Origin: Lingula anatina | Lineage: Eukaryota > Animalia > Brachiopoda | Assembly: GCA_051362555.1 (NCBI GenBank) | Contig: CM120640.1 | Span: forward strand, 52,120,788-52,184,787 | Length of the DNA stretch: 64,000 nucleotides | Reading direction: 5' to 3' | Position numbers and translations under genes: made by a program | Notes under the pieces: generated by a model | The model's input: the letters and a program-made list of their open reading frames with translations, nothing else | The model's database searches: none | Told to the model about the DNA's origin: nothing | Shown here: piece after piece, positions 1,210 through 43,700 of the stretch | Layout: each line of letters starts with the position of its first letter | How positions within the stretch are numbered: position 1 is the first letter of the stretch

Positions 1210-1218
1210 AAGGTCATC

Positions 1219-1337: not shown

Positions 1338-1339
1338 CG

Positions 1340-4400: not shown

Positions 4401-5594
4401 TTTCTTTAAGTTTTCAATTTTTTCCAAATCACAGTTGCGCCGTTGTCTTCGTCTATCAGTGCGTCGGGCCACGTCTGGACTAGGATGGAAGACCGCCTGG
4501 CCACCTTTACTTGTCCTTTTTAGCGTGGCATCAAACAGATGTGTCGATTCCGTTTCATTTCCTTTCCGTCGATCAAAAACAGTGCTAGCGCGGACAGTCA
4601 TCGTCTACGACCATACCACGTTGAAAGCACCGGTTCTCGTCCGATCACCGAAGTTAAGCAACGTCGGGCCAGGTTAGTACTTGGATGGGTGACCGCCTGG
4701 GAATACCTGGTGCCGTAGACACGTTTTTGACATTTTATTCGTAGCCGATTTCAGTTTCTTTCACTTACCACTTTTTTTTCTTTAAGTTTTCAATTTTTTC
4801 CAAATCACAGTTGCGCCGTTGTCTTCGTCTATCAGTGCGTCGGGCCACGTCTGGACTAGGATGGAAGACCGCCTGGCCACCTTTACTTGTCCTTTTTAGC
4901 GTGGCATCAAACAGATGTGTCGATTCCGTTTCATTTCCTTTCCGTCGATCAAAAACAGTGCTAGCGCGGACAGTCATCGTCTACGACCATACCACGTTGA
5001 AAGCACCGGTTCTCGTCCGATCACCGAAGTTAAGCAACGTCGGGCCAGGTTAGTACTTGGATGGGTGACCGCCTGGGAATGGCCCATGACCCCCCTGGGT
5101 AGTAATCATAGTTCCTGGGAATCACGATGGGGGCGCTGAAGGGATAAACCCTTTGATCGTACAAGACGAGCCATGCTGGTTTTGTCAAAATTTATAAGCA
5201 GAATATCATAATATCCTTCTTTTTGATGTTTACTCATTGTAACAATAAAAGGCATTTTTCATGATTATATAAAATTATTTTTCTTTCTTTTTCGACAGTT
5301 TGTAGAGTTTCCTCTTTAGGTATTTTATATAACACACTCTTCTTCGATTTTAATTTGAAATGAAAATTTAAAAAAGAGAGTAAAATTAAATTGTACTTCT
5401 TTGTTTCTTACTGCGGTAATTTCATTTATTTCCTGTTTAATTAAATGACTCAAGTATGACAACTGAAATGTCTTCTTCAACACATCTTTATTATGGAAAA
5501 AATGAACAAAAAGTTACTGAAACAACATGAGTATTGAAAATGCACAAATATGAACAACAAGCATGTGCAACATTACTGCATTGGACAGAACATA

Positions 5595-6320
5595 TTTGGT
5601 TTCTTTGGTACCAGTTGCATAGAAAAATCACTGAATATACATTTTGCACAACTAATACAACTGAAAATATTTAAATGACAGTATGTAATATGCATTTCCC
5701 ACAATCTGCTCAACATTCTACATGGAAATAGAAAATAAAAACAGTCAAAAAAACTGACCGACTGTGATTTTCTCAATGATAATGCAAAGAAAATCACATT
5801 TTACAAAAATATATGTTTGATCCAAGTCTGCTGACTGGAATATAAGAATAATACACAGTTTCTTTGGCCTCTGTTGCATAGAAAACAGTACAAACCACTG
5901 CATACAAAATGTTTTTCACACAATCATTTCACCTTTGGTAAAACAAAGAAAAAAATCTTGTGGGAATTGATTGCTTGTAATACAACTTGTAATACAAAAT
6001 ACTGACAATGTAAAGAGGTTCATGTTTCATAAAATACATGGTTTGAGGAAAATCTACCTACAGAAATATAAAAAATAATACATATATACAGTTTCTTTGG
6101 CCTCTGATGCATGGAATTAAATACAAACTGCTGCATACAAAATGCTTTTCACACAATCTCTTGAATGCAACTAGTCATACAAAATACTGATTTCAATGTA
6201 AAGAAATTCATTTTCCTTACATACATGGTTTGAGCACTCTACTGACTGAAATATAAAAAATAATACATATTAACAGTTTCTTTGGCACCTTGCATACAAA
6301 AATACAAATCACTGCGAGTG
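5595..6320. repeat. Degenerate tandem repeats in the 3' non-coding part of family A (also about 33690-34415)
   Basis: The motif cagtttctttggcctctg..gcat...ctgcatacaaaatg.ttttcacacaatc...atacaaaatactga...atacatggtttgag recurs near 5855 and 6090, with partial copies near 5600 and 6275. Confidence 0.65.
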
Positions 6321-6442
6321 AAGTCCAGTTAAAAAAAAAAAGAAAAGTCATTAGCAGTATTTGGAGATTTCACAGACTCATGGCATGCATTGGGCACAAA
6401 AAAGTCTTAGTTCTATCTTCATGTAACATTATAATTTGGGCA

Positions 6443-9400
6443 CTAGAGCTGTGCCAATCTTTGGTCTACAAAAGACTTAAAATCCTCATAATCTTTAAAA
6501 ACTTCCTTTTCAAATCCTGCTGTCGTTGACATTTTTGTTGTCGGACAAAAAGTAAAAATTTTTTGTTTGCTTTTGCTTGTTTTTTCCTTTGATGGTGTGT
6601 ATCTCCTCCTTTTTCCACCACATTTGGGTACTTTACACAGTGCACATGGTTTCGATGATTTGTTTGGCATGGTAATTTTTGCTGGCAGTGGTGGTAGTGG
6701 TGCCTTGATTACGGGAGGACCTCCAGGCTGACAAATCACAGACGGGCCCTTTGGCTGAGAGGGGAGCACTATAAGAACAGGGGCATTTACAGGTTTTGGC
6801 TTGATGTCTTCCTTCTTAACTTTGCTTGATGCAGAAGCAACATCACCCTCAGTCTGCGGAGAAATGTCATTAAAATTTAACTTCCTCTTTTGCCCAGGCC
6901 TGATGCCTTTGATGAATGGTACTACAGGGTACTGCACCTGTGGCCGTCTAGGTGGTAAGAGCACCGATGGCAAGGTGTCAGCCTCTGGAATTGCTGCTTC
7001 AGATAACACTCGCTGATGGGTCTTGACCTTCGGCAAGGAAGTGGCGACATAGTTTGCTTTCTTCTCCTCTTTGGTCAGAAATGCACTGATGGATTTAGCA
7101 TTTATATTCGGTAGAGGCAAGGTCAGACTGCACAGCATGGGGTCGTCCCTCACTCGATCTACTATGCGTTTGTAGTGTGCCTTGATGAGTGAAGACAATC
7201 TGGACGGAGAACTGGTGTAACACGTTGGTGGCTTGTTTTTCAGGATTTTTATGAGCAAGTACAAAAGCCTGGACTCCTCTGTGATTTGTGCCGCTTGTGC
7301 GTATCTCATCCAGCCAAATTTTGTTTTTTGAGCTGCACTGGACTGTGGAGAATCTGGACCAAGGCATCGACCAAAGAGGGTGTAACCCCACTTAGATTCG
7401 TATTTCTTGACAAAATTGGTTGTCGACTTATCATGATCCTGTAGGTTTGAAGCAGCGGTTATGATCTTGTTTCTAAGTGTCGGTGGCACAAGGTGCTTCC
7501 CATCTTCAGCAGCCAATTCCACTAGCTGCAAGGCCAGGTGTTCCACCTCTTCATAACCAGGCAGGTGTAAATGGCTGGGACCCATGAGCACATCTTCCAG
7601 CACTGGGTTTGACAGCTCTGTGACTTGCTCTGAGGTGGTGAAAATAGAGTATTTGACGTTTACTTCATCCAAAGGATCATTGGATTGCTCCTCCTCATCT
7701 TCTACGATGCCCTCATCTTCCTCATCATCTGTCTGAGCTCCTTCCTCATCACCATCCTCCCTTGACTGCTCTTCCTCAACTGTAAAGAAAAAATACAAGA
7801 TATACTAACTTAAGACAATAAATTACAAACTAAAGACAAGAAATTTGTTCTGTAAAAAAGTGAAAAAAAAAAAAAAAAAAGAATATTACAGTACAAAGAT
7901 TTTCTTTTTTAAAGTTCATTGCTTATTATGATTTACATTGAACAATGAAAATTAATTTGCTGCAACCATTAACAATTCATTCTATAGACTAATTAAATCA
8001 TTACAATTCATGTGAAAATCTTACCCTTCTCCACATAGTATGATGCAGACTTGAAGTCAGTGGACTGAGCATACGCATACTCGATACCAAGCAACTCTTC
8101 TTCTTCCTCATTATTGTAGACCTCTGGGAATGGCATTGGTGCAGTGAAGTTAGGTTCAAAGAGGTGTTCCCTGCCAAACAAAACCTCTGACTGTTGGTTT
8201 AAGAGCTGCACTTGCCTGGGATCAGTGCACGATGACTTCCGCCCCTGACCACCTGCGACACGCAAGGACTCCATCCTGTGGTTCCACTGGGCAGCAAAAC
8301 TGATCAGGTACACCTGGTGAAAAAAATTTTTAAAAATTGATTCAAGGATCAACAATTTCGTGATATTCGGTGAACTTGATTTTATAATTATGGATTCTTA
8401 ATATTTATCAGAAAAAAAACCTTTAAAATACAGGTAAGTATTCACTGACAATTACAAAAAAATCAATCAATCAATCAATAATTTAAAAAATAAATATATT
8501 TTTTACTTGAAATGGCATGATGCCACACCTTTTGGAGGGGATAGCATTCACAAGGTGGGAATGTAGACCTTCAAGGGCATTACTTCCTCTACGACAACGG
8601 TACTTCTGCACATCTACACCATTGATTGACACCGTCTTAGTGGTTACATACAGCGGTATGCCAGGAGGATCCTAGAATATACAAATTGTGATAATAAAGA
8701 ATAAGTTAAATGGAATTTGTTTTCCCCTTCTATTGGGTAATGAACGCATTCTGCAAAAGGAAACTATAAAGTTGTAAAAAGACTAGATAAAGTAAGACGT
8801 ACCTGCAAACAGTTAATGTGCTGACTAGATCTTGCCCAGTGGATATCCACGGCTTCATGAGACTTGAAAAGGGGTATGCCATCTACGTCGAGTCCAGCTG
8901 GTCCTTTAAACTCGTCTATGATGGCTTCTACTGCACACACTGTTGCCTGCAAGTGGAATAACATTTTTATAAAATTTTTTTGTTCAGCAAATAAGTTTTA
9001 ATTTTCATGAAAGGTATGCTTATTTTGAAGAAAAATGTTATGTAAATTATTGGTTTGTATGTCATGAAAAAGGCTGAAGTGAAACATACCTCTACACCAC
9101 GTGTCACTCGCCGTACATAAGACTTGAACTGGTGAGGCTTGACAAAGGCAATCATCTCAGTGTCAGAGTATTTTGAGTACATCTGCTCATTGCCTGCCCG
9201 CACTGCCTTGACCAAATGTAGCAGGTCAGCCTTGTTGAATGCCAATACTGCTCCTGCAAGGGCGCTCATGAACACACCATACTTCGCATGACTCTGCTTT
9301 ATCACGACACTGTCCCATCTGTGGAGCCAGTGTCGGATATCCAGTCTGACAACCATGCCCTCCTCAACCCAGTCTGAGAACAATGTCTCATAAAAGGATT

Positions 9401-11975
9401 CTCCACCATCCCTAATATTCAAATAAGACAAAATATATAAATAAATAAAACAAATCATTCTCATTAAAAAAAACTTACCATAGAATAATTTTTCTAAATG
9501 GATTAAAACCACTTAAAAATTAATGGGTAAAGGACATTTTTTCTAAATAAATGGTCTTCCATTCCTATCATATTAATGATATTTGCATTGAAATAAACAC
9601 GAACAATGATGCTTAACTAGTAACATACCTGCAACAATTATTGTCTGTGTACAGAACTCGTGGGGCTGGAGCATCAGCACGCTTAAAACGCTCAATTAGT
9701 CCTCGAGCCATCCTCCTGTAACACTCCTCGGACTCGGAGGCTACAACAACTGTGGTGAGGAACTGGCCCCATTCATTTAATATGCTGGTCACATACTGCA
9801 GTGATCCACGTCCATCACCATACACTTTCTTGAGTATCTAGGAGGTTAAAAACAAGAGACATGTTAAGTAAATGAGTATAAATTTCACTGAAATAAATTT
9901 TCTGGAATAAAAAAAAAGGAAACTTTTTCTCTTAAAACCACACTAACCTGTTTAGTGCCATCAATACAAAGGATTTCTCCTGTGGTGCTGAGTATGGAGG
10001 CCCTGTATTCTGGAATTTTTTCCATTTCCATCACCAAGTGGGCACGTCGCAGGACACGAGATGAAGGAAGTGGAGTCTGAGCCATTGGTGGTATGTAGCT
10101 CCCGGCTTTCTTAGTGTACGACAGGATGCTGCTTCTGTCCATATGACCTTGATACAGCAGAGTCTGGTACATCCCTCTTCTCTCCATGTACCACTGGTCA
10201 TGTTGGTGCTGTACCAGTCTGTGCACCTTGGTCATTGACACAGCATTCAGCCTGTCAGACAAAATCACAGCTATGTCCTTATCTATAGCCCTTTTTCCAC
10301 AGATGACAGCTGGAAAGAGACTGCGGACTGCCGGTGACAATTTCATCATAATCCGAGGGCTGTAACTGTGAAAAGAATACTGGGTTTCCTCATTTTCTCC
10401 CCTCTGCTGACGTGCATTTTTGCATGGGTAGCAAACCAGCCTTTCCGTCAAAAGGGTATAAAAACTCCGCATTCCACACACCTGCCTGGCAGTTGACCCA
10501 AAGCCATGCTTGGACAAGAAACTTCCAGGTGGAGCAGGACAGTCCTTATTTGGGCATGGTATCTTGGCCTCCATGACCCCTACTGGTCTCCAGAATATCA
10601 CAGGCGATGTGAAGAAGGCATACATTGAGGGCAGTGATGCCTTAATAGAAATTGGCATTGGTGGTGGGTAAAAGTTGATCTTTTTCTTAAGAACCCTCTT
10701 ATACACAACTTCCCCACTGGCACTTCTGTATGGTATTGGTGCAGTAAAAAGTCCATACTCATCATTTTCCTTGAGCCACTTGATGTTAGGGTCTGGGCTT
10801 CCCTCCCACGACCTCTGCCACCCTTCCAATGCAGGGGCCTCTGGATCAGGGGTGAACTCCGCAGTGATCTCCAGCTCCTTTACAGAGGTCAGGTGGGTAG
10901 ATACCTGGCTCTGCTGTAATGCTTCCTCTAAAAGTAACAAATATATAACATCGAGTCCCTGTCTAATGGGATATGTGCTGGATATGGGATACCTGGTGTA
11001 TTATGCATTACAGTCAGGGTATAATAAAGTCAAACTGTAAAGATAATGTTACAATTTCAAGTTGCATTCTTACATTATTTAACTCTGTGTGTTATGTGAA
11101 GACAGCCTTATACATCTGCAAAGGTTAATCATTTTACCTGCTTGTGTCAACAGAATGGAATCCTCAACATATCCAGGATCTTCCTCCATCTCTTTTGCCA
11201 ACATCAGTGATCTTTCTGCTCCCTCAATATCTTTAGCTTTCTGTAATTAAATTTACTGTGTGCTAAGTATAGGCACTAACAACATGAATAATCTGAGATT
11301 AAAACAATAAATAAAGACATCATTTGTAAGGAAAAGACTTTTATAGCAGCATTAGTCATAAATGGGAACAGGGGTATATTTACATTGAAATAAGTGGAAA
11401 AAAGCATAAAAAACATATGATACCTGTAACTTTCTCTCCAGGTGAATGTTCACAGCAGGAAATTCTTTCACCAAGTCCAGCAGCTGCTGCTTCTGCCATT
11501 TGATCTGCATATTGGACTCTCCCTTCAGACAGTATTCAGCCAACAGCCAGACCACCCATCCAACATCATTTTCAAGGAGCCACTTGTAAGACTTGCCCTG
11601 GAATTTCCCAAATGTCATGACTAGCATAAGCCGCCACTGGTCATTGCCTAGCTGGCGGGCTTTTGCTTCTGCACTGGCTGGGTCTAACCACAACTGGTCT
11701 AAAGCAGACTCTGGGCGGAATGCTTTAGCTTCTGGGGTGGATTGTAGCATAGCTTCTCCTGGCTTGTACATACGAATGGAGGGGTAGAGGTGCTGCCGTG
11801 CGTGGCTCTCGAGGTGCCCCTTCTGATTAAATGTCTTGGAACAGTGTGGACAACTGTAAGCTTTAGCCCTCTCCTCATTGTGTATTAGCTGCATGTGTCT
11901 ATTTAGATTAGCTTTGAATCTAAAATACTTAAGGCATACACCGCACTGGAACTGTGTTTTACTGCTGGGTTCCAT
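6443..11975 (-). CDS. Dada-like DDE transposase, 9 coding exons, about 1366 aa
   Basis: Manually spliced GT-AG exons 11975-11424, 11240-11138, 10927-9948, 9837-9629, 9411-9090, 8946-8803, 8671-8507, 8313-8025, 7779-6443 total 4101 nt with consistent phases. Motifs: two N-terminal C2H2 fingers, TFGKFQGK, LCIDGT (D), YTDNNCC (D), RLDIRH (DxxH), RGSNALEGLH (E), acidic tract, C-terminal Cys cluster. Confidence 0.88.
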
Positions 11976-12370
11976 ATTTACTGAAAACATAAAAAAAGTC
12001 TACTAAATACCCAAAATACTGCTGTAATGTTAATTAGTTGCATATATATGTATATATACACATATATAAGCACAAGTCATCGGGAAAATATTTTAATAAA
12101 GTTTTTAAACAGAACACTGTGGCATACTACCCCCCCCCCCCCACCCCGGCGATTAAAGATAAAGGTATTAACAGGTCACTATGAGCTTTATTTGAATGAA
12201 TTAAAGTTTAAATACCAAACAGTACATGTTGCGAAATGTATACACTGGCCAAGTGCCGGTACATGCAAAACGCCATACTAATTCAGTTTTGCGGATCAAT
12301 ACTAAGTAAACACAAAAAGTACAGCTGCCGGTATTTTCAAAACGGCAACAAATATGTGGTCATATCTTAC

Positions 12371-12631
12371 CTTGAATAAATCCTTACTGCACCCGGAATT
12401 GAAAATATGCACTATGGCCTAAATGGCATCAGCATCGAATGAGAGAGATTCGACAGAGATTTCGAAGCGGAGAAACATGAGGCACCGCCATCTTGCCTTC
12501 TTCTTCACGATCTTTGTTAATTAGAGATTGTTTTACTCTAAGCCAATCGTTGAGCCCTGTTGAGGACGAGGACTGCTCAACAGACCAATCAGACGAGGGG
12601 CAGGCTGCTCAACAAAGCTCAATGATTGGTT
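12371..12631 (-). promoter_or_regulatory. Putative transposase promoter and non-coding first exon of family A
   Basis: Three CCAAT/ATTGG boxes with CTCAACA/TGTTGAG repeats (12541-12631), YY1-like CCGCCATCTT (12485-12494) and a minus-strand donor AG|GTAAGA at 12371/12370. The same layout is conserved in family B. Confidence 0.55.
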
Positions 12632-12670
12632 GGTCGAGCCTAAGTGTTACTACTTGGCTGGGTGAGCGCC

Positions 12671-15600
12671 TGGGAATACCTGGTGCCGTAGACACGTTTT
12701 TGACATTTTATTCGTAGCCGATTTCAGTTTCTTTCACTTACCACTTTTTTTTCTTTAAGTTTTCAATTTTTTCCAAATCACAGTTGCGCCGTTGTCTTCG
12801 TCTATCAGTGCGTCGGGCCACGTCTGGACTAGGATGGAAGACCGCCTGGCCACCTTTACTTGTCCTTTTTAGCGTGGCATCAAACAGATGTGTCGATTCC
12901 GTTTCATTTCCTTTCCGTCGATCAAAAACAGTGCTAGCGCGGACAGTCATCGTCTACGACCATACCACGTTGAAAGCACCGGTTCTCGTCCGATCACCGA
13001 AGTTAAGCAACGTCGGGCCAGGTTAGTACTTGGATGGGTGACCGCCTGGGAATACCTGGTGCCGTAGACACGTTTTTGACATTTTATTCGTAGCCGATTT
13101 CAGTTTCTTTCACTTACCACTTTTTTTTCTTTAAGTTTTCAATTTTTTCCAAATCACAGTTGCGCCGTTGTCTTCGTCTATCAGTGCGTCGGGCCACGTC
13201 TGGACTAGGATGGAAGACCGCCTGGCCACCTTTACTTGTCCTTTTTAGCGTGGCATCAAACAGATGTGTCGATTCCGTTTCATTTCCTTTCCGTCGATCA
13301 AAAACAGTGCTAGCGCGGACAGTCATCGTCTACGACCATACCACGTTGAAAGCACCGGTTCTCGTCCGATCACCGAAGTTAAGCAACGTCGGGCCAGGTT
13401 AGTACTTGGATGGGTGACCGCCTGGGAATACCTGGTGCCGTAGACACGTTTTTGACATTTTATTCGTAGCCGATTTCAGTTTCTTTCACTTACCACTTTT
13501 TTTTCTTTAAGTTTTCAATTTTTTCCAAATCACAGTTGCGCCGTTGTCTTCGTCTATCAGTGCGTCGGGCCACGTCTGGACTAGGATGGAAGACCGCCTG
13601 GCCACCTTTACTTGTCCTTTTTAGCGTGGCATCAAACAGATGTGTCGATTCCGTTTCATTTCCTTTCCGTCGATCAAAAACAGTGCTAGCGCGGACAGTC
13701 ATCGTCTACGACCATACCACGTTGAAAGCACCGGTTCTCGTCCGATCACCGAAGTTAAGCAACGTCGGGCCAGGTTAGTACTTGGATGGGTGACCGCCTG
13801 GGAATACCTGGTGCCGTAGACACGTTTTTGACATTTTATTCGTAGCCGATTTCAGTTTCTTTCACTTACCACTTTTTTTTCTTTAAGTTTTCAATTTTTT
13901 CCAAATCACAGTTGCGCCGTTGTCTTCGTCTATCAGTGCGTCGGGCCACGTCTGGACTAGGATGGAAGACCGCCTGGCCACCTTTACTTGTCCTTTTTAG
14001 CGTGGCATCAAACAGATGTGTCGATTCCGTTTCATTTCCTTTCCGTCGATCAAAAACAGTGCTAGCGCGGACAGTCATCGTCTACGACCATACCACGTTG
14101 AAAGCACCGGTTCTCGTCCGATCACCGAAGTTAAGCAACGTCGGGCCAGGTTAGTACTTGGATGGGTGACCGCCTGGGAATACCTGGTGCCGTAGACACG
14201 TTTTTGACATTTTATTCGTAGCCGATTTCAGTTTCTTTCACTTACCACTTTTTTTTCTTTAAGTTTTCAATTTTTTCCAAATCACAGTTGCGCCGTTGTC
14301 TTCGTCTATCAGTGCGTCGGGCCACGTCTGGACTAGGATGGAAGACCGCCTGGCCACCTTTACTTGTCCTTTTTAGCGTGGCATCAAACAGATGTGTCGA
14401 TTCCGTTTCATTTCCTTTCCGTCGATCAAAAACAGTGCTAGCGCGGACAGTCATCGTCTACGACCATACCACGTTGAAAGCACCGGTTCTCGTCCGATCA
14501 CCGAAGTTAAGCAACGTCGGGCCAGGTTAGTACTTGGATGGGTGACCGCCTGGGAATACCTTGTGCCGTAGACACGTTTTTGACATTTTATTCGTAGCCG
14601 ATTTCAGTTTCTTTCACTTACCACTTTTTTTTTCTTTAAGTTTTCAATTTTTTCCAAATCACAGTTGCGCCGTTGTCTTCGTCTATCAGTGCGTCGGGCC
14701 ACGTCTGGACTAGGATGGAAGACCGCCTGGCCACCTTTACTTGTCCTTTTTAGCGTGGCATCAAACAGATGTGTCGATTCCGTTTCATTTCCTTTCCGTC
14801 GATCAAAAACAGTGCTAGCGCGGACAGTCATCGTCTACGACCATACCACGTTGAAAGCACCGGTTCTCGTCCGATCACCGAAGTTAAGCAACGTCGGGCC
14901 AGGTTAGTACTTGGATGGGTGACCGCCTGGGAATACCTGGTGCCGTAGACACGTTTTTGACATTTTATTCGTAGCCGATTTCAGTTTCTTTCACTTACCA
15001 CTTTTTTTTCTTTAAGTTTTCAATTTTTTCCAAATCACAGTTGCGCCGTTGTCTTCGTCTATCAGTGCGTCGGGCCACGTCTGGACTAGGATGGAAGACC
15101 GCCTGGCCACCTTTACTTGTCCTTTTTAGCGTGGCATCAAACAGATGTGTCGATTCCGTTTCATTTCCTTTCCGTCGATCAAAAACAGTGCTAGCGCGGA
15201 CAGTCATCGTCTACGACCATACCACGTTGAAAGCACCGGTTCTCGTCCGATCACCGAAGTTAAGCAACGTCGGGCCAGGTTAGTACTTGGATGGGTGACC
15301 GCCTGGGAATACCTGGTGCCGTAGACACGTTTTTGACATTTTATTCGTAGCCGATTTCAGTTTCTTTCACTTACCACTTTTTTTTTCTTTAAGTTTTCAA
15401 TTTTTTCCAAATCACAGTTGCGCCGTTGTCTTCGTCTATCAGTGCGTCGGGCCACGTCTGGACTAGGATGGAAGACCGCCTGGCCACCTTTACTTGTCCT
15501 TTTTAGCGTGGCATCAAACAGATGTGTCGATTCCGTTTCATTTCCTTTCCGTCGATCAAAAACAGTGCTAGCGCGGACAGTCATCGTCTACGACCATACC

Positions 15601-24850: not shown

Positions 24851-24889
24851 TGTAAAAAGAGTCTAAACCAACACGTTCGGAAAATTGCC

Positions 24890-30800: not shown

Positions 30801-30875
30801 TGCTAGCGCGGACAGTCATCGTCTACGACCATACCACGTTGAAAGCACCGGTTCTCGTCCGATCACCGAAGTTAA
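24890..30875 (+). rRNA. 5S rRNA: 5S rDNA tandem block 3: 16 genes (25172...30821), last interrupted at TTAA
   Basis: 376/377-bp units. Confidence 0.98.
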
Positions 30876-31999: not shown

Positions 32000-33180
32000 T
32001 TAAGCAACGTCGGGCCAGGTTAGTACTTGGATGGGTGACCGCCTGGGAATACCTGGTGCCGTAGACACGTTTTTGACATTTTATTCGTAGCCGATTTCAG
32101 TTTCTTTCACTTACCACTTTTTTTTCTTTAAGTTTTCAATTTTTTCCAAATCACAGTTGCGCCGTTGTCTTCGTCTATCAGTGCGTCGGGCCACGTCTGG
32201 ACTAGGATGGAAGACCGCCTGGCCACCTTTACTTGTCCTTTTTAGCGTGGCATCAAACAGATGTGTCGATTCCGTTTCATTTCCTTTCCGTCGATCAAAA
32301 ACAGTGCTAGCGCGGACAGTCATCGTCTACGACCATACCACGTTGAAAGCACCGGTTCTCGTCCGATCACCGAAGTTAAGCAACGTCGGGCCAGGTTAGT
32401 ACTTGGATGGGTGACCGCCTGGGAATACCTGGTGCCGTAGACACGTTTTTGACATTTTATTCGTAGCCGATTTCAGTTTCTTTCACTTACCACTTTTTTT
32501 TTCTTTAAGTTTTCAATTTTTTCCAAATCACAGTTGCGCCGTTGTCTTCGTCTATCAGTGCGTCGGGCCACGTCTGGACTAGGATGGAAGACCGCCTGGC
32601 CACCTTTACTTGTCCTTTTTAGCGTGGCATCAAACAGATGTGTCGATTCCGTTTCATTTCCTTTCCGTCGATCAAAAACAGTGCTAGCGCGGACAGTCAT
32701 CGTCTACGACCATACCACGTTGAAAGCACCGGTTCTCGTCCGATCACCGAAGTTAAGCAACGTCGGGCCAGGTTAGTACTTGGATGGGTGACCGCCTGGG
32801 AATACCTGGTGCCGTAGACACGTTTTTGACATTTTATTCGTAGCCGATTTCAGTTTCTTTCACTTACCACTTTTTTTTTCTTTAAGTTTTCAATTTTTTC
32901 CAAATCACAGTTGCGCCGTTGTCTTCGTCTATCAGTGCGTCGGGCCACGTCTGGACTAGGATGGAAGACCGCCTGGCCACCTTTACTTGTCCTTTTTAGC
33001 GTGGCATCAAACAGATGTGTCGATTCCGTTTCATTTCCTTTCCGTCGATCAAAAACAGTGCTAGCGCGGACAGTCATCGTCTACGACCATACCACGTTGA
33101 AAGCACCGGTTCTCGTCCGATCACCGAAGTTAAGCAACGTCGGGCCAGGTTAGTACTTGGATGGGTGACCGCCTGGGAAT
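32000..33180 (+). rRNA. 5S rRNA: 5S rDNA block 4: 3' part of the split gene plus 3 genes (32325, 32702, 33079), last interrupted
   Basis: 376/377-bp units. Confidence 0.97.
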
Positions 33181-36100
33181 GGCCCATGACCCCCCTGGGT
33201 AGTAATCATAGTTCCTGGGAATCACGATGGGGGCGCTGAAGGGATAAACCCTTTGATCGTACAAGACGAGCCATGCTGGTTTTGTCAAAATTTATAAGCA
33301 GAATATCATAATATCCTTCTTTTTGATGTTTACTCATTGTAACAAGGCATTTTTCATGATTATATAAAATTATTTTTCTTTCTTTTTCGACAGTTTGTAG
33401 AGTTTCCTCTTTAGGTATTTTATATAACACACTCTTCTTCGATTTTAATTTGAAATGAAAATTTAAAAAAGAGAGTAAAATTAAATTGTACTTCTTTGTT
33501 TCTTACTGCGGTAATTTCATTTATTTCCTGTTTAATTAAATGACTCAAGTATGACAACTGAAATGTCTTCTTCAACACATCTTTATTATGGAAAAAATGA
33601 ACAAAAAGTTACTGAAACAACATGAGTATTGAAAATGCACAAATATGAACAACAAGCATGTGCAACATTACTGCATTGGACAGAACATATTTGGTTTCTT
33701 TGGTACCAGTTGCATAGAAAAATCACTGAATATACATTTTGCACAACTAATACAACTGAAAATATTTAAATGACAGTATGTAATATGCATTTCCCACAAT
33801 CTGCTCAACATTCTACATGGAAATAGAAAATAAAAACAGTCAAAAAAACTGACCGACTGTGATTTTCTCAATGATAATGCAAAGAAAATCACATTTTACA
33901 AAAATATATGTTTGATCCAAGTCTGCTGACTGGAATATAAGAATAATACACAGTTTCTTTGGCCTCTGTTGCATAGAAAACAGTACAAACCACTGCATAC
34001 AAAATGTTTTTCACACAATCATTTCACCTTTGGTAAAACAAAGAAAAAAATCTTGTGGGAATTGATTGCTTGTAATACAACTTGTAATACAAAATACTGA
34101 CAATGTAAAGAGGTTCATGTTTCATAAAATACATGGTTTGAGGAAAATCTACCTACAGAAATATAAAAAATAATACATATATACAGTTTCTTTGGCCTCT
34201 GATGCATGGAATTAAATACAAACTGCTGCATACAAAATGCTTTTCACACAATCTCTTGAATGCAACTAGTCATACAAAATACTGATTTCAATGTAAAGAA
34301 ATTCATTTTCCTTACATACATGGTTTGAGCACTCTACTGACTGAAATATAAAAAATAATACATATTAACAGTTTCTTTGGCACCTTGCATACAAAAATAC
34401 AAATCACTGCGAGTGAAGTCCAGTTAAAAAAAAAAAGAAAAGTCATTAGCAGTATTTGGAGATTTCACAGACTCATGGCATGCATTGGGCACAAAAAAGT
34501 CTTAGTTCTATCTTCATGTAACATTATAATTTGGGCACTAGAGCTGTGCCAATCTTTGGTCTACAAAAGACTTAAAATCCTCATAATCTTTAAAAACTTC
34601 CTTTTCAAATCCTGCTGTCGTTGACATTTTTGTTGTCGGACAAAAAGTAAAAATTTTTTGTTTGCTTTTGCTTGTTTTTTCCTTTGATGGTGTGTATCTC
34701 CTCCTTTTTCCACCACATTTGGGTACTTTACACAGTGCACATGGTTTCGATGATTTGTTTGGCATGGTAATTTTTGCTGGCAGTGGTGGTAGTGGTGCCT
34801 TGATTACGGGAGGACCTCCAGGCTGACAAATCACAGACGGGCCCTTTGGCTGAGAGGGGAGCACTATAAGAACAGGGGCATTTACAGGTTTTGGCTTGAT
34901 GTCTTCCTTCTTAACTTTGCTTGATGCAGAAGCAACATCACCCTCAGTCTGCGGAGAAATGTCATTAAAATTTAACTTCCTCTTTTGCCCAGGCCTGATG
35001 CCTTTGATGAATGGTACTACAGGGTACTGCACCTGTGGCCGTCTAGGTGGTAAGAGCACCGATGGCAAGGTGTCAGCCTCTGGAATTGCTGCTTCAGATA
35101 ACACTCGCTGATGGGTCTTGACCTTCGGCAAGGAAGTGGCGACATAGTTTGCTTTCTTCTCCTCTTTGGTCAGAAATGCACTGATGGATTTAGCATTTAT
35201 ATTCGGTAGAGGCAAGGTCAGACTGCACAGCATGGGGTCGTCCCTCACTCGATCTACTATGCGTTTGTAGTGTGCCTTGATGAGTGAAGACAATCTGGAC
35301 GGAGAACTGGTGTAACACGTTGGTGGCTTGTTTTTCAGGATTTTTATGAGCAAGTACAAAAGCCTGGACTCCTCTGTGATTTGTGCCGCTTGTGCGTATC
35401 TCATCCAGCCAAATTTTGTTTTTTGAGCTGCACTGGACTGTGGAGAATCTGGACCAAGGCATCGACCAAAGAGGGTGTAACCCCACTTAGATTCGTATTT
35501 CTTGACAAAATTGGTTGTCGACTTATCATGATCCTGTAGGTTTGAAGCAGCGGTTATGATCTTGTTTCTAAGTGTCGGTGGCACAAGGTGCTTCCCATCT
35601 TCAGCAGCCAATTCCACTAGCTGCAAGGCCAGGTGTTCCACCTCTTCATAACCAGGCAGGTGTAAATGGCTGGGACCCATGAGCACATCTTCCAGCACTG
35701 GGTTTGACAGCTCTGTGACTTGCTCTGAGGTGGTGAAAATAGAGTATTTGACGTTTACTTCATCCAAAGGATCATTGGATTGCTCCTCCTCATCTTCTAC
35801 GATGCCCTCATCTTCCTCATCATCTGTCTGAGCTCCTTCCTCATCACCATCCTCCCTTGACTGCTCTTCCTCAACTGTAAAGAAAAAATACAAGATATAC
35901 TAACTTAAGACAATAAATTACAAACTAAAGACAAGAAATTTGTTCTGTAAAAAAGTGAAAAAAAAAAAAAAAAAAGAATATTACAGTACAAAGATTTTCT
36001 TTTTTAAAGTTCATTGCTTATTATGATTTACATTGAACAATGAAAATTAATTTGCTGCAACCATTAACAATTCATTCTATAGACTAATTAAATCATTACA

Positions 36101-39100
36101 ATTCATGTGAAAATCTTACCCTTCTCCACATAGTATGATGCAGACTTGAAGTCAGTGGACTGAGCATACGCATACTCGATACCAAGCAACTCTTCTTCTT
36201 CCTCATTATTGTAGACCTCTGGGAATGGCATTGGTGCAGTGAAGTTAGGTTCAAAGAGGTGTTCCCTGCCAAACAAAACCTCTGACTGTTGGTTTAAGAG
36301 CTGCACTTGCCTGGGATCAGTGCACGATGACTTCCGCCCCTGACCACCTGCGACACGCAAGGACTCCATCCTGTGGTTCCACTGGGCAGCAAAACTGATC
36401 AGGTACACCTGGTGAAAAAAATTTTTAAAAATTGATTCAAGGATCAACAATTTCGTGATATTCGGTGAACTTGATTTTATAATTATGGATTCTTAATATT
36501 TATCAGAAAAAAAACCTTTAAAATACAGGTAAGTATTCACTGACAATTACAAAAAAATCAATCAATCAATCAATAATTTAAAAAATAAATATATTTTTTA
36601 CTTGAAATGGCATGATGCCACACCTTTTGGAGGGGATAGCATTCACAAGGTGGGAATGTAGACCTTCAAGGGCATTACTTCCTCTACGACAACGGTACTT
36701 CTGCACATCTACACCATTGATTGACACCGTCTTAGTGGTTACATACAGCGGTATGCCAGGAGGATCCTAGAATATACAAATTGTGATAATAAAGAATAAG
36801 TTAAATGGAATTTGTTTTCCCCTTCTATTGGGTAATGAACGCATTCTGCAAAAGGAAACTATAAAGTTGTAAAAAGACTAGATAAAGTAAGACGTACCTG
36901 CAAACAGTTAATGTGCTGACTAGATCTTGCCCAGTGGATATCCACGGCTTCATGAGACTTGAAAAGGGGTATGCCATCTACGTCGAGTCCAGCTGGTCCT
37001 TTAAACTCGTCTATGATGGCTTCTACTGCACACACTGTTGCCTGCAAGTGGAATAACATTTTTATAAAATTTTTTTGTTCAGCAAATAAGTTTTAATTTT
37101 CATGAAAGGTATGCTTATTTTGAAGAAAAATGTTATGTAAATTATTGGTTTGTATGTCATGAAAAAGGCTGAAGTGAAACATACCTCTACACCACGTGTC
37201 ACTCGCCGTACATAAGACTTGAACTGGTGAGGCTTGACAAAGGCAATCATCTCAGTGTCAGAGTATTTTGAGTACATCTGCTCATTGCCTGCCCGCACTG
37301 CCTTGACCAAATGTAGCAGGTCAGCCTTGTTGAATGCCAATACTGCTCCTGCAAGGGCGCTCATGAACACACCATACTTCGCATGACTCTGCTTTATCAC
37401 GACACTGTCCCATCTGTGGAGCCAGTGTCGGATATCCAGTCTGACAACCATGCCCTCCTCAACCCAGTCTGAGAACAATGTCTCATAAAAGGATTCTCCA
37501 CCATCCCTAATATTCAAATAAGACAAAATATATAAATAAATAAAACAAATCATTCTCATTAAAAAAAACTTACCATAGAATAATTTTTCTAAATGGATTA
37601 AAACCACTTAAAAATTAATGGGTAAAGGACATTTTTTCTAAATAAATGGTCTTCCATTCCTATCATATTAATGATATTTGCATTGAAATAAACACGAACA
37701 ATGATGCTTAACTAGTAACATACCTGCAACAATTATTGTCTGTGTACAGAACTCGTGGGGCTGGAGCATCAGCACGCTTAAAACGCTCAATTAGTCCTCG
37801 AGCCATCCTCCTGTAACACTCCTCGGACTCGGAGGCTACAACAACTGTGGTGAGGAACTGGCCCCATTCATTTAATATGCTGGTCACATACTGCAGTGAT
37901 CCACGTCCATCACCATACACTTTCTTGAGTATCTAGGAGGTTAAAAACAAGAGACATGTTAAGTAAATGAGTATAAATTTCACTGAAATAAATTTTCTGG
38001 AATAAAAAAAAAGGAAACTTTTTCTCTTAAAACCACACTAACCTGTTTAGTGCCATCAATACAAAGGATTTCTCCTGTGGTGCTGAGTATGGAGGCCCTG
38101 TATTCTGGAATTTTTTCCATTTCCATCACCAAGTGGGCACGTCGCAGGACACGAGATGAAGGAAGTGGAGTCTGAGCCATTGGTGGTATGTAGCTCCCGG
38201 CTTTCTTAGTGTACGACAGGATGCTGCTTCTGTCCATATGACCTTGATACAGCAGAGTCTGGTACATCCCTCTTCTCTCCATGTACCACTGGTCATGTTG
38301 GTGCTGTACCAGTCTGTGCACCTTGGTCATTGACACAGCATTCAGCCTGTCAGACAAAATCACAGCTATGTCCTTATCTATAGCCCTTTTTCCACAGATG
38401 ACAGCTGGAAAGAGACTGCGGACTGCCGGTGACAATTTCATCATAATCCGAGGGCTGTAACTGTGAAAAGAATACTGGGTTTCCTCATTTTCTCCCCTCT
38501 GCTGACGTGCATTTTTGCATGGGTAGCAAACCAGCCTTTCCGTCAAAAGGGTATAAAAACTCCGCATTCCACACACCTGCCTGGCAGTTGACCCAAAGCC
38601 ATGCTTGGACAAGAAACTTCCAGGTGGAGCAGGACAGTCCTTATTTGGGCATGGTATCTTGGCCTCCATGACCCCTACTGGTCTCCAGAATATCACAGGC
38701 GATGTGAAGAAGGCATACATTGAGGGCAGTGATGCCTTAATAGAAATTGGCATTGGTGGTGGGTAAAAGTTGATCTTTTTCTTAAGAACCCTCTTATACA
38801 CAACTTCCCCACTGGCACTTCTGTATGGTATTGGTGCAGTAAAAAGTCCATACTCATCATTTTCCTTGAGCCACTTGATGTTAGGGTCTGGGCTTCCCTC
38901 CCACGACCTCTGCCACCCTTCCAATGCAGGGGCCTCTGGATCAGGGGTGAACTCCGCAGTGATCTCCAGCTCCTTTACAGAGGTCAGGTGGGTAGATACC
39001 TGGCTCTGCTGTAATGCTTCCTCTAAAAGTAACAAATATATAACATCGAGTCCCTGTCTAATGGGATATGTGCTGGATATGGGATACCTGGTGTATTATG

Positions 39101-40769
39101 CATTACAGTCAGGGTATAATAAAGTCAAACTGTAAAGATAATGTTACAATTTCAAGTTGCATTCTTACATTATTTAACTCTGTGTGTTATGTGAAGACAG
39201 CCTTATACATCTGCAAAGGTTAATCATTTTACCTGCTTGTGTCAACAGAATGGAATCCTCAACATATCCAGGATCTTCCTCCATCTCTTTTGCCAACATC
39301 AGTGATCTTTCTGCTCCCTCAATATCTTTAGCTTTCTGTAATTAAATTTACTGTGTGCTAAGTATAGGCACTAACAACATGAATAATCTGAGATTAAAAC
39401 AATAAATAAAGACATCATTTGTAAGGAAAAGACTTTTATAGCAGCATTAGTCATAAATGGGAACAGGGGTATATTTACATTGAAATAAGTGGAAAAAAGC
39501 ATAAAAAACATATGATACCTGTAACTTTCTCTCCAGGTGAATGTTCACAGCAGGAAATTCTTTCACCAAGTCCAGCAGCTGCTGCTTCTGCCATTTGATC
39601 TGCATATTGGACTCTCCCTTCAGACAGTATTCAGCCAACAGCCAGACCACCCATCCAACATCATTTTCAAGGAGCCACTTGTAAGACTTGCCCTGGAATT
39701 TCCCAAATGTCATGACTAGCATAAGCCGCCACTGGTCATTGCCTAGCTGGCGGGCTTTTGCTTCTGCACTGGCTGGGTCTAACCACAACTGGTCTAAAGC
39801 AGACTCTGGGCGGAATGCTTTAGCTTCTGGGGTGGATTGTAGCATAGCTTCTCCTGGCTTGTACATACGAATGGAGGGGTAGAGGTGCTGCCGTGCGTGG
39901 CTCTCGAGGTGCCCCTTCTGATTAAATGTCTTGGAACAGTGTGGACAACTGTAAGCTTTAGCCCTCTCCTCATTGTGTATTAGCTGCATGTGTCTATTTA
40001 GATTAGCTTTGAATCTAAAATACTTAAGGCATACACCGCACTGGAACTGTGTTTTACTGCTGGGTTCCATATTTACTGAAAACATAAAAAAAGTCTACTA
40101 AATACCCAAAATACTGCTGTAATGTTAATTAGTTGCATATATATGTATATATACACATATATAAGCACAAGTCATCGGGAAAATATTTTAATAAAGTTTT
40201 TAAACAGAACACTGTGGCATACTACCCCCCCCCCCCCCCCCACCCCGGCGATTAAAGATAAAGGTATTAACAGGTCACTATGAGCTTTATTTGAATGAAT
40301 TAAAGTTTAAATACCAAACAGTACATGTTGCGAAATGTATACACTGGCCAAGTGCCGGTACATGCAAAACGCCATACTAATTCAGTTTTGCGGATCAATA
40401 CTAAGTAAACACAAAAAGTACAGCTGCCGGTATTTTCAAAACGGCAACAAATATGTGGTCATATCTTACCTTGAATAAATCCTTACTGCACCCGGAATTG
40501 AAAATATGCACTATGGCCTAAATGGCATCAGCATCGAATGAGAGAGATTCGACAGAGATTTCGAAGCGGAGAAACATGAGGCACCGCCATCTTGCCTTCT
40601 TCTTCACGATCTTTGTTAATTAGAGATTGTTTTACTCTAAGCCAATCGTTGAGCCCTGTTGAGGACGAGGACTGCTCAACAGACCAATCAGACGAGGGGC
40701 AGGCTGCTCAACAAAGCTCAATGATTGGTTGGTCGAGCCTAAGTGTTACTACTTGGCTGGGTGAGCGCC
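33181..40769 (-). mobile_element. 5S-targeting Dada-like DNA transposon, family A copy 2 (7589 bp)
   Basis: TGGGAAT at 33174-33180 and 40770-40776. Differs visibly from copy 1 only by a 5-bp deletion near 33345 and a poly-C four bases longer near 40230. Confidence 0.9.
34538..40070 (-). CDS. Dada-like DDE transposase, family A copy 2, about 1366 aa
   Basis: ORF translations identical to copy 1 at offset +28095. Exons 40070-39519, 39335-39233, 39022-38043, 37932-37724, 37506-37185, 37041-36898, 36766-36602, 36408-36120, 35874-34538. Confidence 0.88.
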
Positions 40770-43700
40770 TGGGAATACCTGGTGCCGTAGACACGTTTTT
40801 GACATTTTATTCGTAGCCGATTTCAGTTTCTTTCACTTACCACTTTTTTTTTCTTTAAGTTTTCAATTTTTTCCAAATCACAGTTGCGCCGTTGTCTTCG
40901 TCTATCAGTGCGTCGGGCCACGTCTGGACTAGGATGGAAGACCGCCTGGCCACCTTTACTTGTCCTTTTTAGCGTGGCATCAAACAGATGTGTCGATTCC
41001 GTTTCATTTCCTTTCCGTCGATCAAAAACAGTGCTAGCGCGGACAGTCATCGTCTACGACCATACCACGTTGAAAGCACCGGTTCTCGTCCGATCACCGA
41101 AGTTAAGCAACGTCGGGCCAGGTTAGTACTTGGATGGGTGACCGCCTGGGAATACCTGGTGCCGTAGACACGTTTTTGACATTTTATTCGTAGCCGATTT
41201 CAGTTTCTTTCACTTACCACTTTTTTTTTCTTTAAGTTTTCAATTTTTTCCAAATCACAGTTGCGCCGTTGTCTTCGTCTATCAGTGCGTCGGGCCACGT
41301 CTGGACTAGGATGGAAGACCGCCTGGCCACCTTTACTTGTCCTTTTTAGCGTGGCATCAAACAGATGTGTCGATTCCGTTTCATTTCCTTTCCGTCGATC
41401 AAAAACAGTGCTAGCGCGGACAGTCATCGTCTACGACCATACCACGTTGAAAGCACCGGTTCTCGTCCGATCACCGAAGTTAAGCAACGTCGGGCCAGGT
41501 TAGTACTTGGATGGGTGACCGCCTGGGAATACCTGGTGCCGTAGACACGTTTTTGACATTTTATTCGTAGCCGATTTCAGTTTCTTTCACTTACCACTTT
41601 TTTTTTCTTTAAGTTTTCAATTTTTTCCAAATCACAGTTGCGCCGTTGTCTTCGTCTATCAGTGCGTCGGGCCACGTCTGGACTAGGATGGAAGACCGCC
41701 TGGCCACCTTTACTTGTCCTTTTTAGCGTGGCATCAAACAGATGTGTCGATTCCGTTTCATTTCCTTTCCGTCGATCAAAAACAGTGCTAGCGCGGACAG
41801 TCATCGTCTACGACCATACCACGTTGAAAGCACCGGTTCTCGTCCGATCACCGAAGTTAAGCAACGTCGGGCCAGGTTAGTACTTGGATGGGTGACCGCC
41901 TGGGAATACCTGGTGCCGTAGACACGTTTTTGACATTTTATTCGTAGCCGATTTCAGTTTCTTTCACTTACCACTTTTTTTTCTTTAAGTTTTCAATTTT
42001 TTCCAAATCACAGTTGCGCCGTTGTCTTCGTCTATCAGTGCGTCGGGCCACGTCTGGACTAGGATGGAAGACCGCCTGGCCACCTTTACTTGTCCTTTTT
42101 AGCGTGGCATCAAACAGATGTGTCGATTCCGTTTCATTTCCTTTCCGTCGATCAAAAACAGTGCTAGCGCGGACAGTCATCGTCTACGACCATACCACGT
42201 TGAAAGCACCGGTTCTCGTCCGATCACCGAAGTTAAGCAACGTCGGGCCAGGTTAGTACTTGGATGGGTGACCGCCTGGGAATACCTGGTGCCGTAGACA
42301 CGTTTTTGACATTTTATTCGTAGCCGATTTCAGTTTCTTTCACTTACCACTTTTTTTTTCTTTAAGTTTTCAATTTTTTCCAAATCACAGTTGCGCCGTT
42401 GTCTTCGTCTATCAGTGCGTCGGGCCACGTCTGGACTAGGATGGAAGACCGCCTGGCCACCTTTACTTGTCCTTTTTAGCGTGGCATCAAACAGATGTGT
42501 CGATTCCGTTTCATTTCCTTTCCGTCGATCAAAAACAGTGCTAGCGCGGACAGTCATCGTCTACGACCATACCACGTTGAAAGCACCGGTTCTCGTCCGA
42601 TCACCGAAGTTAAGCAACGTCGGGCCAGGTTAGTACTTGGATGGGTGACCGCCTGGGAATACCTGGTGCCGTAGACACGTTTTTGACATTTTATTCGTAG
42701 CCGATTTCAGTTTCTTTCACTTACCACTTTTTTTTTCTTTAAGTTTTCAATTTTTTCCAAATCACAGTTGCGCCGTTGTCTTCGTCTATCAGTGCGTCGG
42801 GCCACGTCTGGACTAGGATGGAAGACCGCCTGGCCACCTTTACTTGTCCTTTTTAGCGTGGCATCAAACAGATGTGTCGATTCCGTTTCATTTCCTTTCC
42901 GTCGATCAAAAACAGTGCTAGCGCGGACAGTCATCGTCTACGACCATACCACGTTGAAAGCACCGGTTCTCGTCCGATCACCGAAGTTAAGCAACGTCGG
43001 GCCAGGTTAGTACTTGGATGGGTGACCGCCTGGGAATACCTGGTGCCGTAGACACGTTTTTGACATTTTATTCGTAGCCGATTTCAGTTTCTTTCACTTA
43101 CCACTTTTTTTTTCTTTAAGTTTTCAATTTTTTCCAAATCACAGTTGCGCCGTTGTCTTCGTCTATCAGTGCGTCGGGCCACGTCTGGACTAGGATGGAA
43201 GACCGCCTGGCCACCTTTACTTGTCCTTTTTAGCGTGGCATCAAACAGATGTGTCGATTCCGTTTCATTTCCTTTCCGTCGATCAAAAACAGTGCTAGCG
43301 CGGACAGTCATCGTCTACGACCATACCACGTTGAAAGCACCGGTTCTCGTCCGATCACCGAAGTTAAGCAACGTCGGGCCAGGTTAGTACTTGGATGGGT
43401 GACCGCCTGGGAATACCTGGTGCCGTAGACACGTTTTTGACATTTTATTCGTAGCCGATTTCAGTTTCTTTCACTTACCACTTTTTTTTTCTTTAAGTTT
43501 TCAATTTTTTCCAAATCACAGTTGCGCCGTTGTCTTCGTCTATCAGTGCGTCGGGCCACGTCTGGACTAGGATGGAAGACCGCCTGGCCACCTTTACTTG
43601 TCCTTTTTAGCGTGGCATCAAACAGATGTGTCGATTCCGTTTCATTTCCTTTCCGTCGATCAAAAACAGTGCTAGCGCGGACAGTCATCGTCTACGACCA

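What the first reader, a model, noticed from the sequence alone, without database searches (positions are those of the whole stretch)
5074..40776. Autonomous DNA transposons that home to one exact site in 5S rRNA genes (Dada-like, apparently in an invertebrate)
Seen: three 7.6-8.5 kb insertions all fall at 5S nt 96-102 (TGGGAAT duplicated), all antisense to the 5S genes, and each has an uninterrupted spliced ~1.4-kaa ORF with D, D, DxxH and E motifs. Known: Dada is the DDE superfamily that lacks long TIRs, makes 6-7-bp TSDs and targets multicopy small-RNA genes. As I recall, 5S-specific Dada families have been reported from ray-finned fish. Inference: the host 5S looks invertebrate (mollusc-like), so these may be an undescribed lineage of sequence-specific integrases hitting a site conserved across animal 5S rDNA, of interest as a safe-harbour insertion tool.
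Basis: partly seen in the sequence, partly recalled or inferred. Interest (0 to 1): 0.9.

Follow-up and report, generated by a model that had tools for sequence, protein, structure and literature searches.

The report
Fish-type 5S-targeting transposons in a brachiopod
Two intact families of Dada DNA transposon sit at exactly the same spot in the 5S ribosomal RNA genes of the lamp shell Lingula as their known relatives do in fish, so this is a known kind of element in a new animal group, and its site-targeting is likely very old.

Summary
Observation confirmed. Three insertions (A1, B, A2) split 5S genes of a 376-bp array at nt 96-102, all antisense. They are two families: A1 and A2 have identical coding sequence, B is 58% identical to A. 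Both encode intact spliced DDE proteins (1366 and 1421 aa), and B transcripts are spliced in RNA-seq. The host is the brachiopod Lingula (99.8% to a RefSeq protein), not a mollusc. This is not an undescribed lineage. It is the Dada-5S lineage known from five fish species: same site, same terminal motifs, 8 of 8 shared intron positions, one clade (100/100). New, as far as the papers searched show (Repbase not searchable): Dada-5S outside fish, with relatives of unknown target in amphioxus, echinoderms and a priapulid; an N-terminal C2H2 finger pair confined to this clade; a likely 6-bp rather than 7-bp duplication; and B keeping the site although its ends no longer resemble 5S. The predicted fold of a relative is closest to an IS256-family transposase. 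Genome-wide exclusivity and activity are untested. New member of a known kind; interest 0.45.

The parts
1213..64000 (+). 5S rDNA tandem array, 376/377-bp unit (119-nt gene + spacer); 103 gene starts in the window, 3 carry a Dada element
   Evidence: Rfam RF00001 103 matches; TRF; unit table
5074..5080 (+). Left target copy TGGGAAT of A1 (5S nt 96-102)
5081..12670 (-). Element A1, Dada-5S family A, 7590 bp (12671 belongs to it under the 6-bp model)
6443..11975 (-). Transposase A CDS, 1366 aa; exons 11975-11424, 11240-11138, 10927-9948, 9837-9629, 9411-9090, 8946-8803, 8671-8507, 8313-8025, 7779-6443
   Evidence: same length and 3 substitutions versus RefSeq XP_013407000.1
11790..11945 (-). Two N-terminal C2H2 zinc fingers of A (aa 11-62)
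   Evidence: Pfam zf-C2H2
12646..12671 (-). 5' end of A: copy-like match to 5S nt 71-96 (23 of 26 identical), which covers the C box; holds sub-terminal repeat GTAGTAA at 12647-12653
   Evidence: C box = nt 80-97 in Xenopus
5081..5105 (-). 3' end of A; partner of the sub-terminal inverted repeat at 5099-5105; ends as fish Dada-5S do
12671..12677 (+). Right target copy TGGGAAT of A1
16433..16439 (+). Left target copy TGGGAAT of B
16440..24889 (-). Element B, Dada-5S family B, 8450 bp
17642..24214 (-). Transposase B CDS, 1421 aa; exons 24214-23681, 23475-23373, 22731-21680, 21501-21293, 21169-20848, 20635-20492, 20349-20185, 19912-19624, 19438-19263, 18913-17642; a 5' UTR intron at about 24221-24584
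   Evidence: 4 of 9 CDS introns and the UTR intron seen as RNA joints, a fifth CDS intron as matching loose ends
24053..24196 (-). Two N-terminal C2H2 zinc fingers of B (aa 7-54)
24865..24873 (-). B sub-terminal inverted repeat TGTTGGTTT, partner at 16457-16465; absent from the 5S target at that distance
24890..24896 (+). Right target copy TGGGAAT of B
33174..33180 (+). Left target copy TGGGAAT of A2
33181..40769 (-). Element A2, second copy of family A; CDS 40070-34538 identical to A1
40770..40776 (+). Right target copy TGGGAAT of A2

Best explanation
These are two intact families of the Dada-5S DNA transposon lineage in the 5S rDNA array of the brachiopod Lingula, each encoding a spliced DDE transposase that likely recognises the promoter-side half of the 5S gene by sequence and likely inserts the element at one fixed base with a 6-bp staggered cut. 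Shown: position, orientation, open frames, catalytic motifs, splicing of B, lineage. Inferred steps: (1) the element is transcribed from its 5' end, antisense to 5S, from a CCAAT-rich region; (2) the transposase binds family-specific sub-terminal inverted repeats 18-26 bp inside each end and releases the element; (3) it binds 5S nt ~70-95 (the C-box side) and joins the ends across GGGAAT (nt 97-102), which is duplicated; (4) the split gene is lost, but 100 of 103 genes here carry no Dada, so the cost is small, and new jumps offset loss by array turnover. Target reading is probably separate from end reading, because B hits the same base with ends unlike 5S; the clade-specific C2H2 pair is my candidate target reader (about 35%). 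The lineage most likely goes back to the protostome-deuterostome ancestor (about 65%).
For: Same target as published Dada-5S, ATTCCCAGGCGGTC on the minus strand, and as a full fish-type copy fetched here (L003). 5' motif ACCAATCATTGA..GTTGAGC and 3' end GGGGGTCATG(G/A)GCC shared with fish Dada-5S but not seen in the U1, U6, tL, tS or tV ends that I read. 8 of 8 introns of A match B and L003 in position and phase. One clade with L003 and the Labeo/Cirrhinus proteins, 100/100; these two match Dada-5S_LaRo by my by-eye translation. Full-length identity 55-59% to fish. B RNA: 215 reads in run X15, almost all of one orientation, spliced. AlphaFold model of relative P0016 matches ISCth4 (IS256 family), Z 14.1, rmsd 3.7, 277 aligned, above retroviral integrases at Z 10. 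Ends pair better under a 6-bp model (16/30, p about 0.001 for A and B; 12/29, p about 0.055 under 7 bp), and L001 has an extra GGGAAT at its junction. C2H2 pair in 11 of 11 aligned complete in-group N-termini, 0 of 4 complete out-group N-termini.
Against: No transposition was observed. No genome is held, so copies outside 5S cannot be counted. A1 and A2 may be one insertion copied by recombination. Expression of A was not tested with reads. B expression is low (215 of 9.5 million records in X15; 21 in X12; most of the 49 in X18 fit only partly), and 3 reads show an alternative splice in intron 2. The fold is of a 60%-identical fish relative, and Foldseek E was only 3e-3. The targets of the echinoderm, amphioxus and priapulid relatives are unknown. 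The base of the clade is unresolved: A and B are sisters (83) in one tree and not in the other. One fish protein nests with amphioxus (100/99), which hints at horizontal transfer. The 6-bp versus 7-bp margin is small in the fish copy (15/30 versus 13/29). The C2H2 role rests on co-occurrence only.
Confidence: 0.85

Rival explanations
1. The site is found through a host factor: the transposase docks on TFIIIA or the Pol III complex bound to the 5S internal promoter and cuts at a fixed distance.
For: The cut lies at the downstream edge of the C box (nt 80-97 in Xenopus, bound by TFIIIA fingers 1-3). B's ends are unlike the target (10/30 and 8/30, not significant) yet B uses the same base.
Against: The sister lineage Dada-U1 targets a near-identical sequence in U1 genes, which are not TFIIIA targets (recalled). 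Kojima and Jurka note that factor-tethered elements land near, not at, a fixed base.
Confidence: 0.15
2. Dada-5S moves by IS256-like copy-out/paste-in through a circle whose end-to-end junction carries the 6-bp core, and treats the 5S half-site as a pseudo-end; this would explain target-like ends and the reported flank replacement by other Dada families.
For: Best structural match is ISCth4, a copy-out/paste-in enzyme that works best with a 6-bp junction spacer. The 5' ends of A (23/30) and of the fish copy (18/30) resemble the target. Dada-tA and Dada-tY replace their flanks.
Against: A shared fold does not fix the pathway; only solved structures were compared. B lacks the mimicry. No circle junction was listed in the one lay on B, which had little power at the ends.
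Confidence: 0.25
3. The Lingula families arrived by horizontal transfer from a deuterostome or another marine host, so the targeting is younger than the host split.
For: B is as close to fish as to A (59-60%). Two deep families share one genome. A fish protein nests with amphioxus. Fish distribution is patchy.
Against: Neither A nor B nests in the chordate clade (100/100 without them). Identities among Lingula, crinoid and fish are flat at 58-61% while two fish copies are 72.5%. Four-fold sites of A versus B are only 96 of 263 identical, so any transfer is ancient. A second protostome phylum (Priapulus) has a member.
Confidence: 0.3
4. The copies are immobile or domesticated passengers that are multiplied only by recombination in the array.
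For: A1 and A2 are nearly identical and could be a recombination duplicate; no empty/filled polymorphism was shown.
Against: Two families keep whole termini, target duplications and all catalytic residues; the known domesticated dDada has lost them and lies outside RNA genes. The TTAA element three units upstream of A2 is absent upstream of A1, which limits any duplicated block.
Confidence: 0.07

Closest known systems
Dada-5S families of ray-finned fish (Dada-5S-A/B_CaAu, _ClH, _LaRo, _NoCe, _OrMe; Kojima 2022, PMC8869645)
   Same: Target base and orientation, 5' CCAAT-type motif, 3' terminal motif, 8 intron positions, C2H2 pair, catalytic motifs, C-terminal Cys motif; 55-59% full-length identity; one clade.
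   Different: Host is a protostome (brachiopod); two families 58% alike share one array; B has its own sub-terminal repeat that is not in 5S; B has one private intron, the fish copy another.
Dada-U1 (sister lineage; Kojima and Jurka 2013, PMC3706591)
   Same: Similar target sequence, proposed 6-bp duplication, short sub-terminal inverted repeats; about 41% identity over the core for the tier that carries the U1A signatures.
   Different: Targets U1 snRNA genes; different termini; the complete out-group proteins begin after the place of the C2H2 pair.
Dada-U6 (fish, water flea, oyster, Capitella)
   Same: Precedent for one Dada target kept across several animal phyla.
   Different: Other gene, other lineage; it was described as the only cross-phylum Dada specificity.
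ISCth4 / IS256-family transposase (PDB 6xgx, 6xg8, 6xgw; PMC7780238)
   Same: RNase H-like core with helical insertion domain; best structural match to the model of a relative (Z 14.1).
   Different: Bacterial, about 400 aa, long TIRs, 8-bp duplication, A/T-rich preference rather than one site; 10-12% identity.

Membership tests
Dada superfamily | DDE triad with DxxH after the second D | tested here: met
   A D541, D610, D639-H642, E804; B D559, D628, D657-H660, E822; motifs align with out-group Dada proteins; RNase H-like fold in the model of a relative
Dada superfamily | 6-7-bp target site duplication | tested here: met
   TGGGAAT at both sides of all three inserts; 7 bp exact in the fish copy L003, 6 bp favoured by end register
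Dada superfamily | No long TIRs; short sub-terminal inverted repeats | tested here: met
   Ends match at only 16 of 30; 7-bp (A) and 9-bp (B) inverted motifs at equal distance from the ends
Dada superfamily | Insertion at a fixed site in a multicopy small RNA gene | tested here: met
   3 of 3 copies in the window at 5S nt 96-102
Dada superfamily | CCCC zinc motif ahead of the catalytic core | tested here: met
   A C343, C348, C384, C387 (read from the protein); spacing 5/36/3 versus 5/35/3 in Dada-U6_DR
Dada superfamily | C-terminal zinc motif (CCHC in the 2013 set) | tested here: inconclusive
   A has C1300, C1303, C1308, C1333 and no His; the fish Dada-5S proteins (P0006, L003) have the same Cys pattern, so the CCHC form does not define the family as now accepted
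Dada-5S lineage | Target ATTCCCAGGCGGTC, element opposite to the gene | tested here: met
   Window junctions versus paper text and L003
Dada-5S lineage | Transposase groups with target-confirmed Dada-5S | tested here: met
   25-row clade, 100/100, with L003 and the Labeo/Cirrhinus proteins; 23-row clade, SH-aLRT 100, under a mixture model. Out-group labels are by signature, not the Repbase set
Dada-5S lineage | Terminal sequences like other Dada-5S | tested here: met
   3' ends versus L003: A 19/30, B 17/30, p about 1e-4 to 2e-4; by-eye match to Data S1 ends
Dada-5S lineage | Specificity across the whole genome | not testable with these tools
   No genome held
Dada-5S lineage | Identity with a family already in Repbase or Dfam | not testable with these tools
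   Neither library is available; only papers were searched
MuDR / hAT / P / Kolobok | Terminal inverted repeats and the superfamily's own duplication (8-10 bp, or TTAA; recalled) | tested here: not met
   No TIRs, 6-7-bp duplication; no such Pfam family on P0001, only DUF6729 and zf-C2H2

The most novel reading that the evidence does not exclude
Dada-5S is a DNA transposon lineage that has held one base of the 5S gene since the last common ancestor of protostomes and deuterostomes, a DNA counterpart of R2, still active in a brachiopod and present at the same site in amphioxus, echinoderms and priapulids. It became 5S-specific by adding a C2H2 finger pair that reads the C box, as TFIIIA does, with target reading separate from end reading, so its transposase could place cargo at the matching site of any animal's 5S array.
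Probability: 0.25. Interest if true: 0.75.

Novelty: new member of a known kind. Interest (0 to 1): 0.45.

Why it matters
Dada-5S was reported from five fish species only, and Dada-U6 was the one Dada specificity known across phyla. Intact copies in a brachiopod make 5S a second cross-phylum target and predict 5S insertions for unannotated proteins in amphioxus, echinoderms and a priapulid. No paper found here tests how Dada finds its site. Families A and B give a natural pair for that test: same target, 58% identical proteins, different ends, one end mimicking the target and one not. The C2H2 pair and the 6-bp cut are specific, testable leads. A protein-only integrase for a conserved multicopy site would be useful for gene delivery, but that idea is already published and activity is unproven.

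Tried and rejected
Whole-genome copy mapping: no genome held. RNA and flank reads for A: no result obtained, so expression and flanks of A are open. The look-up of sequencing runs listed no RNA holder among indexed runs; raw RNA runs were laid instead. Invertebrate loci with flanks: the junction scan found only 3 fish-type contigs in metagenomes and none in genome or viral contigs; protein-based scans found none. So no invertebrate target other than Lingula was seen. PDB sequence search with alignment A1: nothing (best E 0.82). Single-sequence fold of A exon 1: pLDDT 42, not used. HMMER scan with A's last exon: 172 hits, unnamed, used only to deepen the alignment. Array variants next to A1 and A2 are mostly homopolymer lengths and do not settle duplication versus transposition. 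hAT and P structures were not among the top 50 VIA rows (Hermes at Foldseek rank 44, E 2.7); this does not exclude kinship. Dataset S1 of the 2013 paper could not be read, so I cannot say whether Dada-1_BF or other untargeted 2013 families belong to this clade. Earlier scan notes: only fungal Starship and bacterial items, not relevant. Mollusc host: rejected. MuDR, hAT, Kolobok: rejected.
Full report
Observation. The window is a 5S rDNA array of 376/377-bp units from about 1213 to the end (103 Rfam matches). Three genes are split at nt 96-102 with TGGGAAT on both sides: A1 5081-12670, B 16440-24889, A2 33181-40769. A1 and A2 differ only by a 5-bp indel and a poly-C length, and their CDS are identical. 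There are thus two families and at least two independent insertions. The block 3901-16439 matches 31999-44544 at 99.86%, but that is expected of array plus element; a TTAA-flanked insert three units upstream of A2 has no counterpart at A1, so a long block duplication is excluded and a short one is not.

Genes. Splicing by GT-AG sites gives open frames of 1366 aa (A) and 1421 aa (B), 58% identical over 1417 columns. A equals the RefSeq model XP_013407000.1 of Lingula anatina in length and at 1363 of 1366 residues. That names the host and agrees with my exon model. Order of parts: two C2H2 fingers, a conserved helical block, a CCCC motif (Pfam DUF6729 region), D541, D610, DIRH, E804, an acidic stretch, a conserved helical domain, a proline-rich linker and a C-terminal Cys motif. 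Reads laid on B: run X15 gave 215 reads from about 6% of the run, almost all with the first mate on +, which in most stranded libraries means minus-strand RNA. Joints match introns 5, 6, 7, 9 and a 5' UTR intron; loose ends match intron 8; introns 1-4 were not listed in their predicted form, and 3 reads use another acceptor in intron 2. X12 gave 21 reads; most of the 49 in X18 fit only partly. DNA contigs of X1 cover B in long pieces without differences, but X1 may be the assembly's own source. A was not tested with reads.

What it is. Kojima 2022 (PMC8869645; I read parts 1-3 and 5 of 5 of the text, supplement parts 3 and 6 of 109 and four keyword searches; figures are not held) lists six Dada-5S families in five fish species and gives the target as ATTCCCAGGCGGTC. 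That is the window's site. A scan for the 5S-element junction returned three metagenome contigs. L003 holds a whole 8.2-kb element in a fish-type 5S gene at the same base; its ends read as Dada-5S_ClH. Its 1423-aa protein is 55% identical to A and 59% to B, and all 8 introns of A fall at the same column and phase in B and L003. The N-terminus of Dada-5S_LaRo, translated by eye, matches P0005 and P0006. Trees of the region A 300-925: one search kept 36 of 55 rows (19 dropped for covering under 400 of 626 positions or duplicating A; quick search, mixture model); one search removed the 4 most distant rows and added L003 and the half-filled Priapulus row (34 rows, LG+G4). Both put A and B in one fully supported clade with fish Dada-5S, amphioxus and echinoderm proteins, and Priapulus joins it. 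The next tier (about 41%) carries signatures that I read by eye in Dada-U1A_CaAu. Chordate members form a 100/100 sub-clade; the base is unresolved, and A is sister to B in one tree but basal in the other.

Ends. The 3' ends of A and B match the fish copy at 19 and 17 of 30 (p about 1e-4, shuffles of the 30-mers). If the last base of the 7-bp repeat is given to the element, a short inverted motif falls at the same distance from both ends in A (GTAGTAA), B (TGTTGGTTT) and the fish copy (CCAAGTAC): 16, 16 and 15 of 30, against 12, 12 and 13 of 29 under 7 bp. L001 carries an extra GGGAAT at its junction, and Kojima and Jurka 2013 (PMC3706591; parts 1-3 of 4 read, supplement only listed) argued for a 6-bp duplication in the sister lineage U1. 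I therefore favour 6 bp (about 70%). The 2013 paper speculated that sub-terminal repeats shared with the target serve target recognition. A fits: its 5' end matches 5S nt 71-96 at 23 of 26. B does not: 10 and 8 of 30, not significant. B still sits at the same base, so end mimicry is not needed to keep the site, or B lost it only lately.

Mechanism. An AlphaFold model of the relative P0016 (1106 aa, 60% to A; mean pLDDT 73) matches ISCth4 best: Foldseek E 3e-3, VIA Z 14.1, rmsd 3.7 over 277 residues, ahead of retroviral integrases at Z 10. This agrees with the IS256/MuDR/hAT kinship proposed in 2013 and supports a DDE enzyme with an insertion domain. I commit to direct sequence reading of the C-box side of 5S (C box = nt 80-97 in Xenopus, PMC1950542, passages only), a staggered cut across nt 97-102 and survival through array redundancy; all of these steps are inferred. 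The C2H2 pair is in 11 of 11 aligned in-group N-termini, with a conserved first-finger helix, and missing from 4 of 4 out-group proteins whose N-terminus is complete. In one search, 14 of 25 in-group rows had a finger; of the other 11, all align to A only from residue 101 or later. It is a candidate target reader, on co-occurrence alone. ISCth4 moves by copy-out/paste-in and prefers a 6-bp junction spacer (PMC7780238, passages only); whether Dada does so is open.

Age. Identities among A, B, the crinoid and the fish proteins are flat at 58-61%, against 72.5% between two fish copies. Four-fold sites of A versus B are 96 of 263 identical. That fits descent from the bilaterian ancestor or a very old transfer. 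One fish protein nests with amphioxus (100/99), so transfer does seem to occur in this clade. The targets of the other invertebrate members could not be seen.

Novelty. Searches: Dada + DNA transposon + 5S rRNA, 6 papers; Dada + transposon + Lingula, 0; Dada-5S, 1; Dada transpos + target, 7; Dada + superfamily + invertebrate + 5S rDNA, 0; Dada + target-specific since 2022, 1. The Lingula genome paper (PMC13121700) and Kojima 2024 (PMC10886601) have no 'Dada' in their main text (keyword passages only; supplements not searched). The library lacks most subscription papers, and Repbase and Dfam could not be searched, so a deposited Lingula family is possible. The 2022 survey covered vertebrates only. 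Verdict: a real, well-preserved new member of a known lineage, whose value is the jump in host range and the A/B contrast. Interest 0.45.

Noticed in passing
window 30876-31999: A 1124-bp insert in another 5S gene at nt 52-55 (inside the A box): TTAA on both sides, 8-bp terminal inverted repeat CCCCATAG, internal 209-bp tandem duplication. Looks like a non-autonomous piggyBac- or Kolobok-type element. Single copy here; specificity unknown.
   Followed up: partly
window 57616-57741 and 61127-61252: Two identical 126-bp truncated units: 5S to about nt 109 with a 9-bp duplication beside the Dada site, then a 250-bp deletion to the next unit. Could be a repair scar of a break at the Dada site, copied within a 3.5-kb block.
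   Followed up: partly
window 602-710: Degenerate copy (82%) of spacer plus 5S start, outside the array edge at 1213.
   Followed up: no
L001 (whole; junction near 6310): Fish-type Dada-5S copy with an internal deletion of about 2 kb relative to L003, an extra GGGAAT at its 5' junction and non-5S DNA shortly beyond it.
   Followed up: partly
proteins P0016, P0004, P0010, P0020: A fish (Eleginops) protein groups with amphioxus proteins, 100/99: possible horizontal transfer or an old paralogous sub-lineage.
   Followed up: no
window 23180-23373: Three RNA reads join the intron-2 donor of B to an acceptor at about 23180, inside the predicted intron: an alternative, probably non-productive, splice form.
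   Followed up: no
window 5500-6330 and 17995-19260: The 3' untranslated part of A holds diverged internal repeats; short stretches in B's last intron and exon match much deeper contigs, i.e. other genomic repeats or related copies.
   Followed up: no
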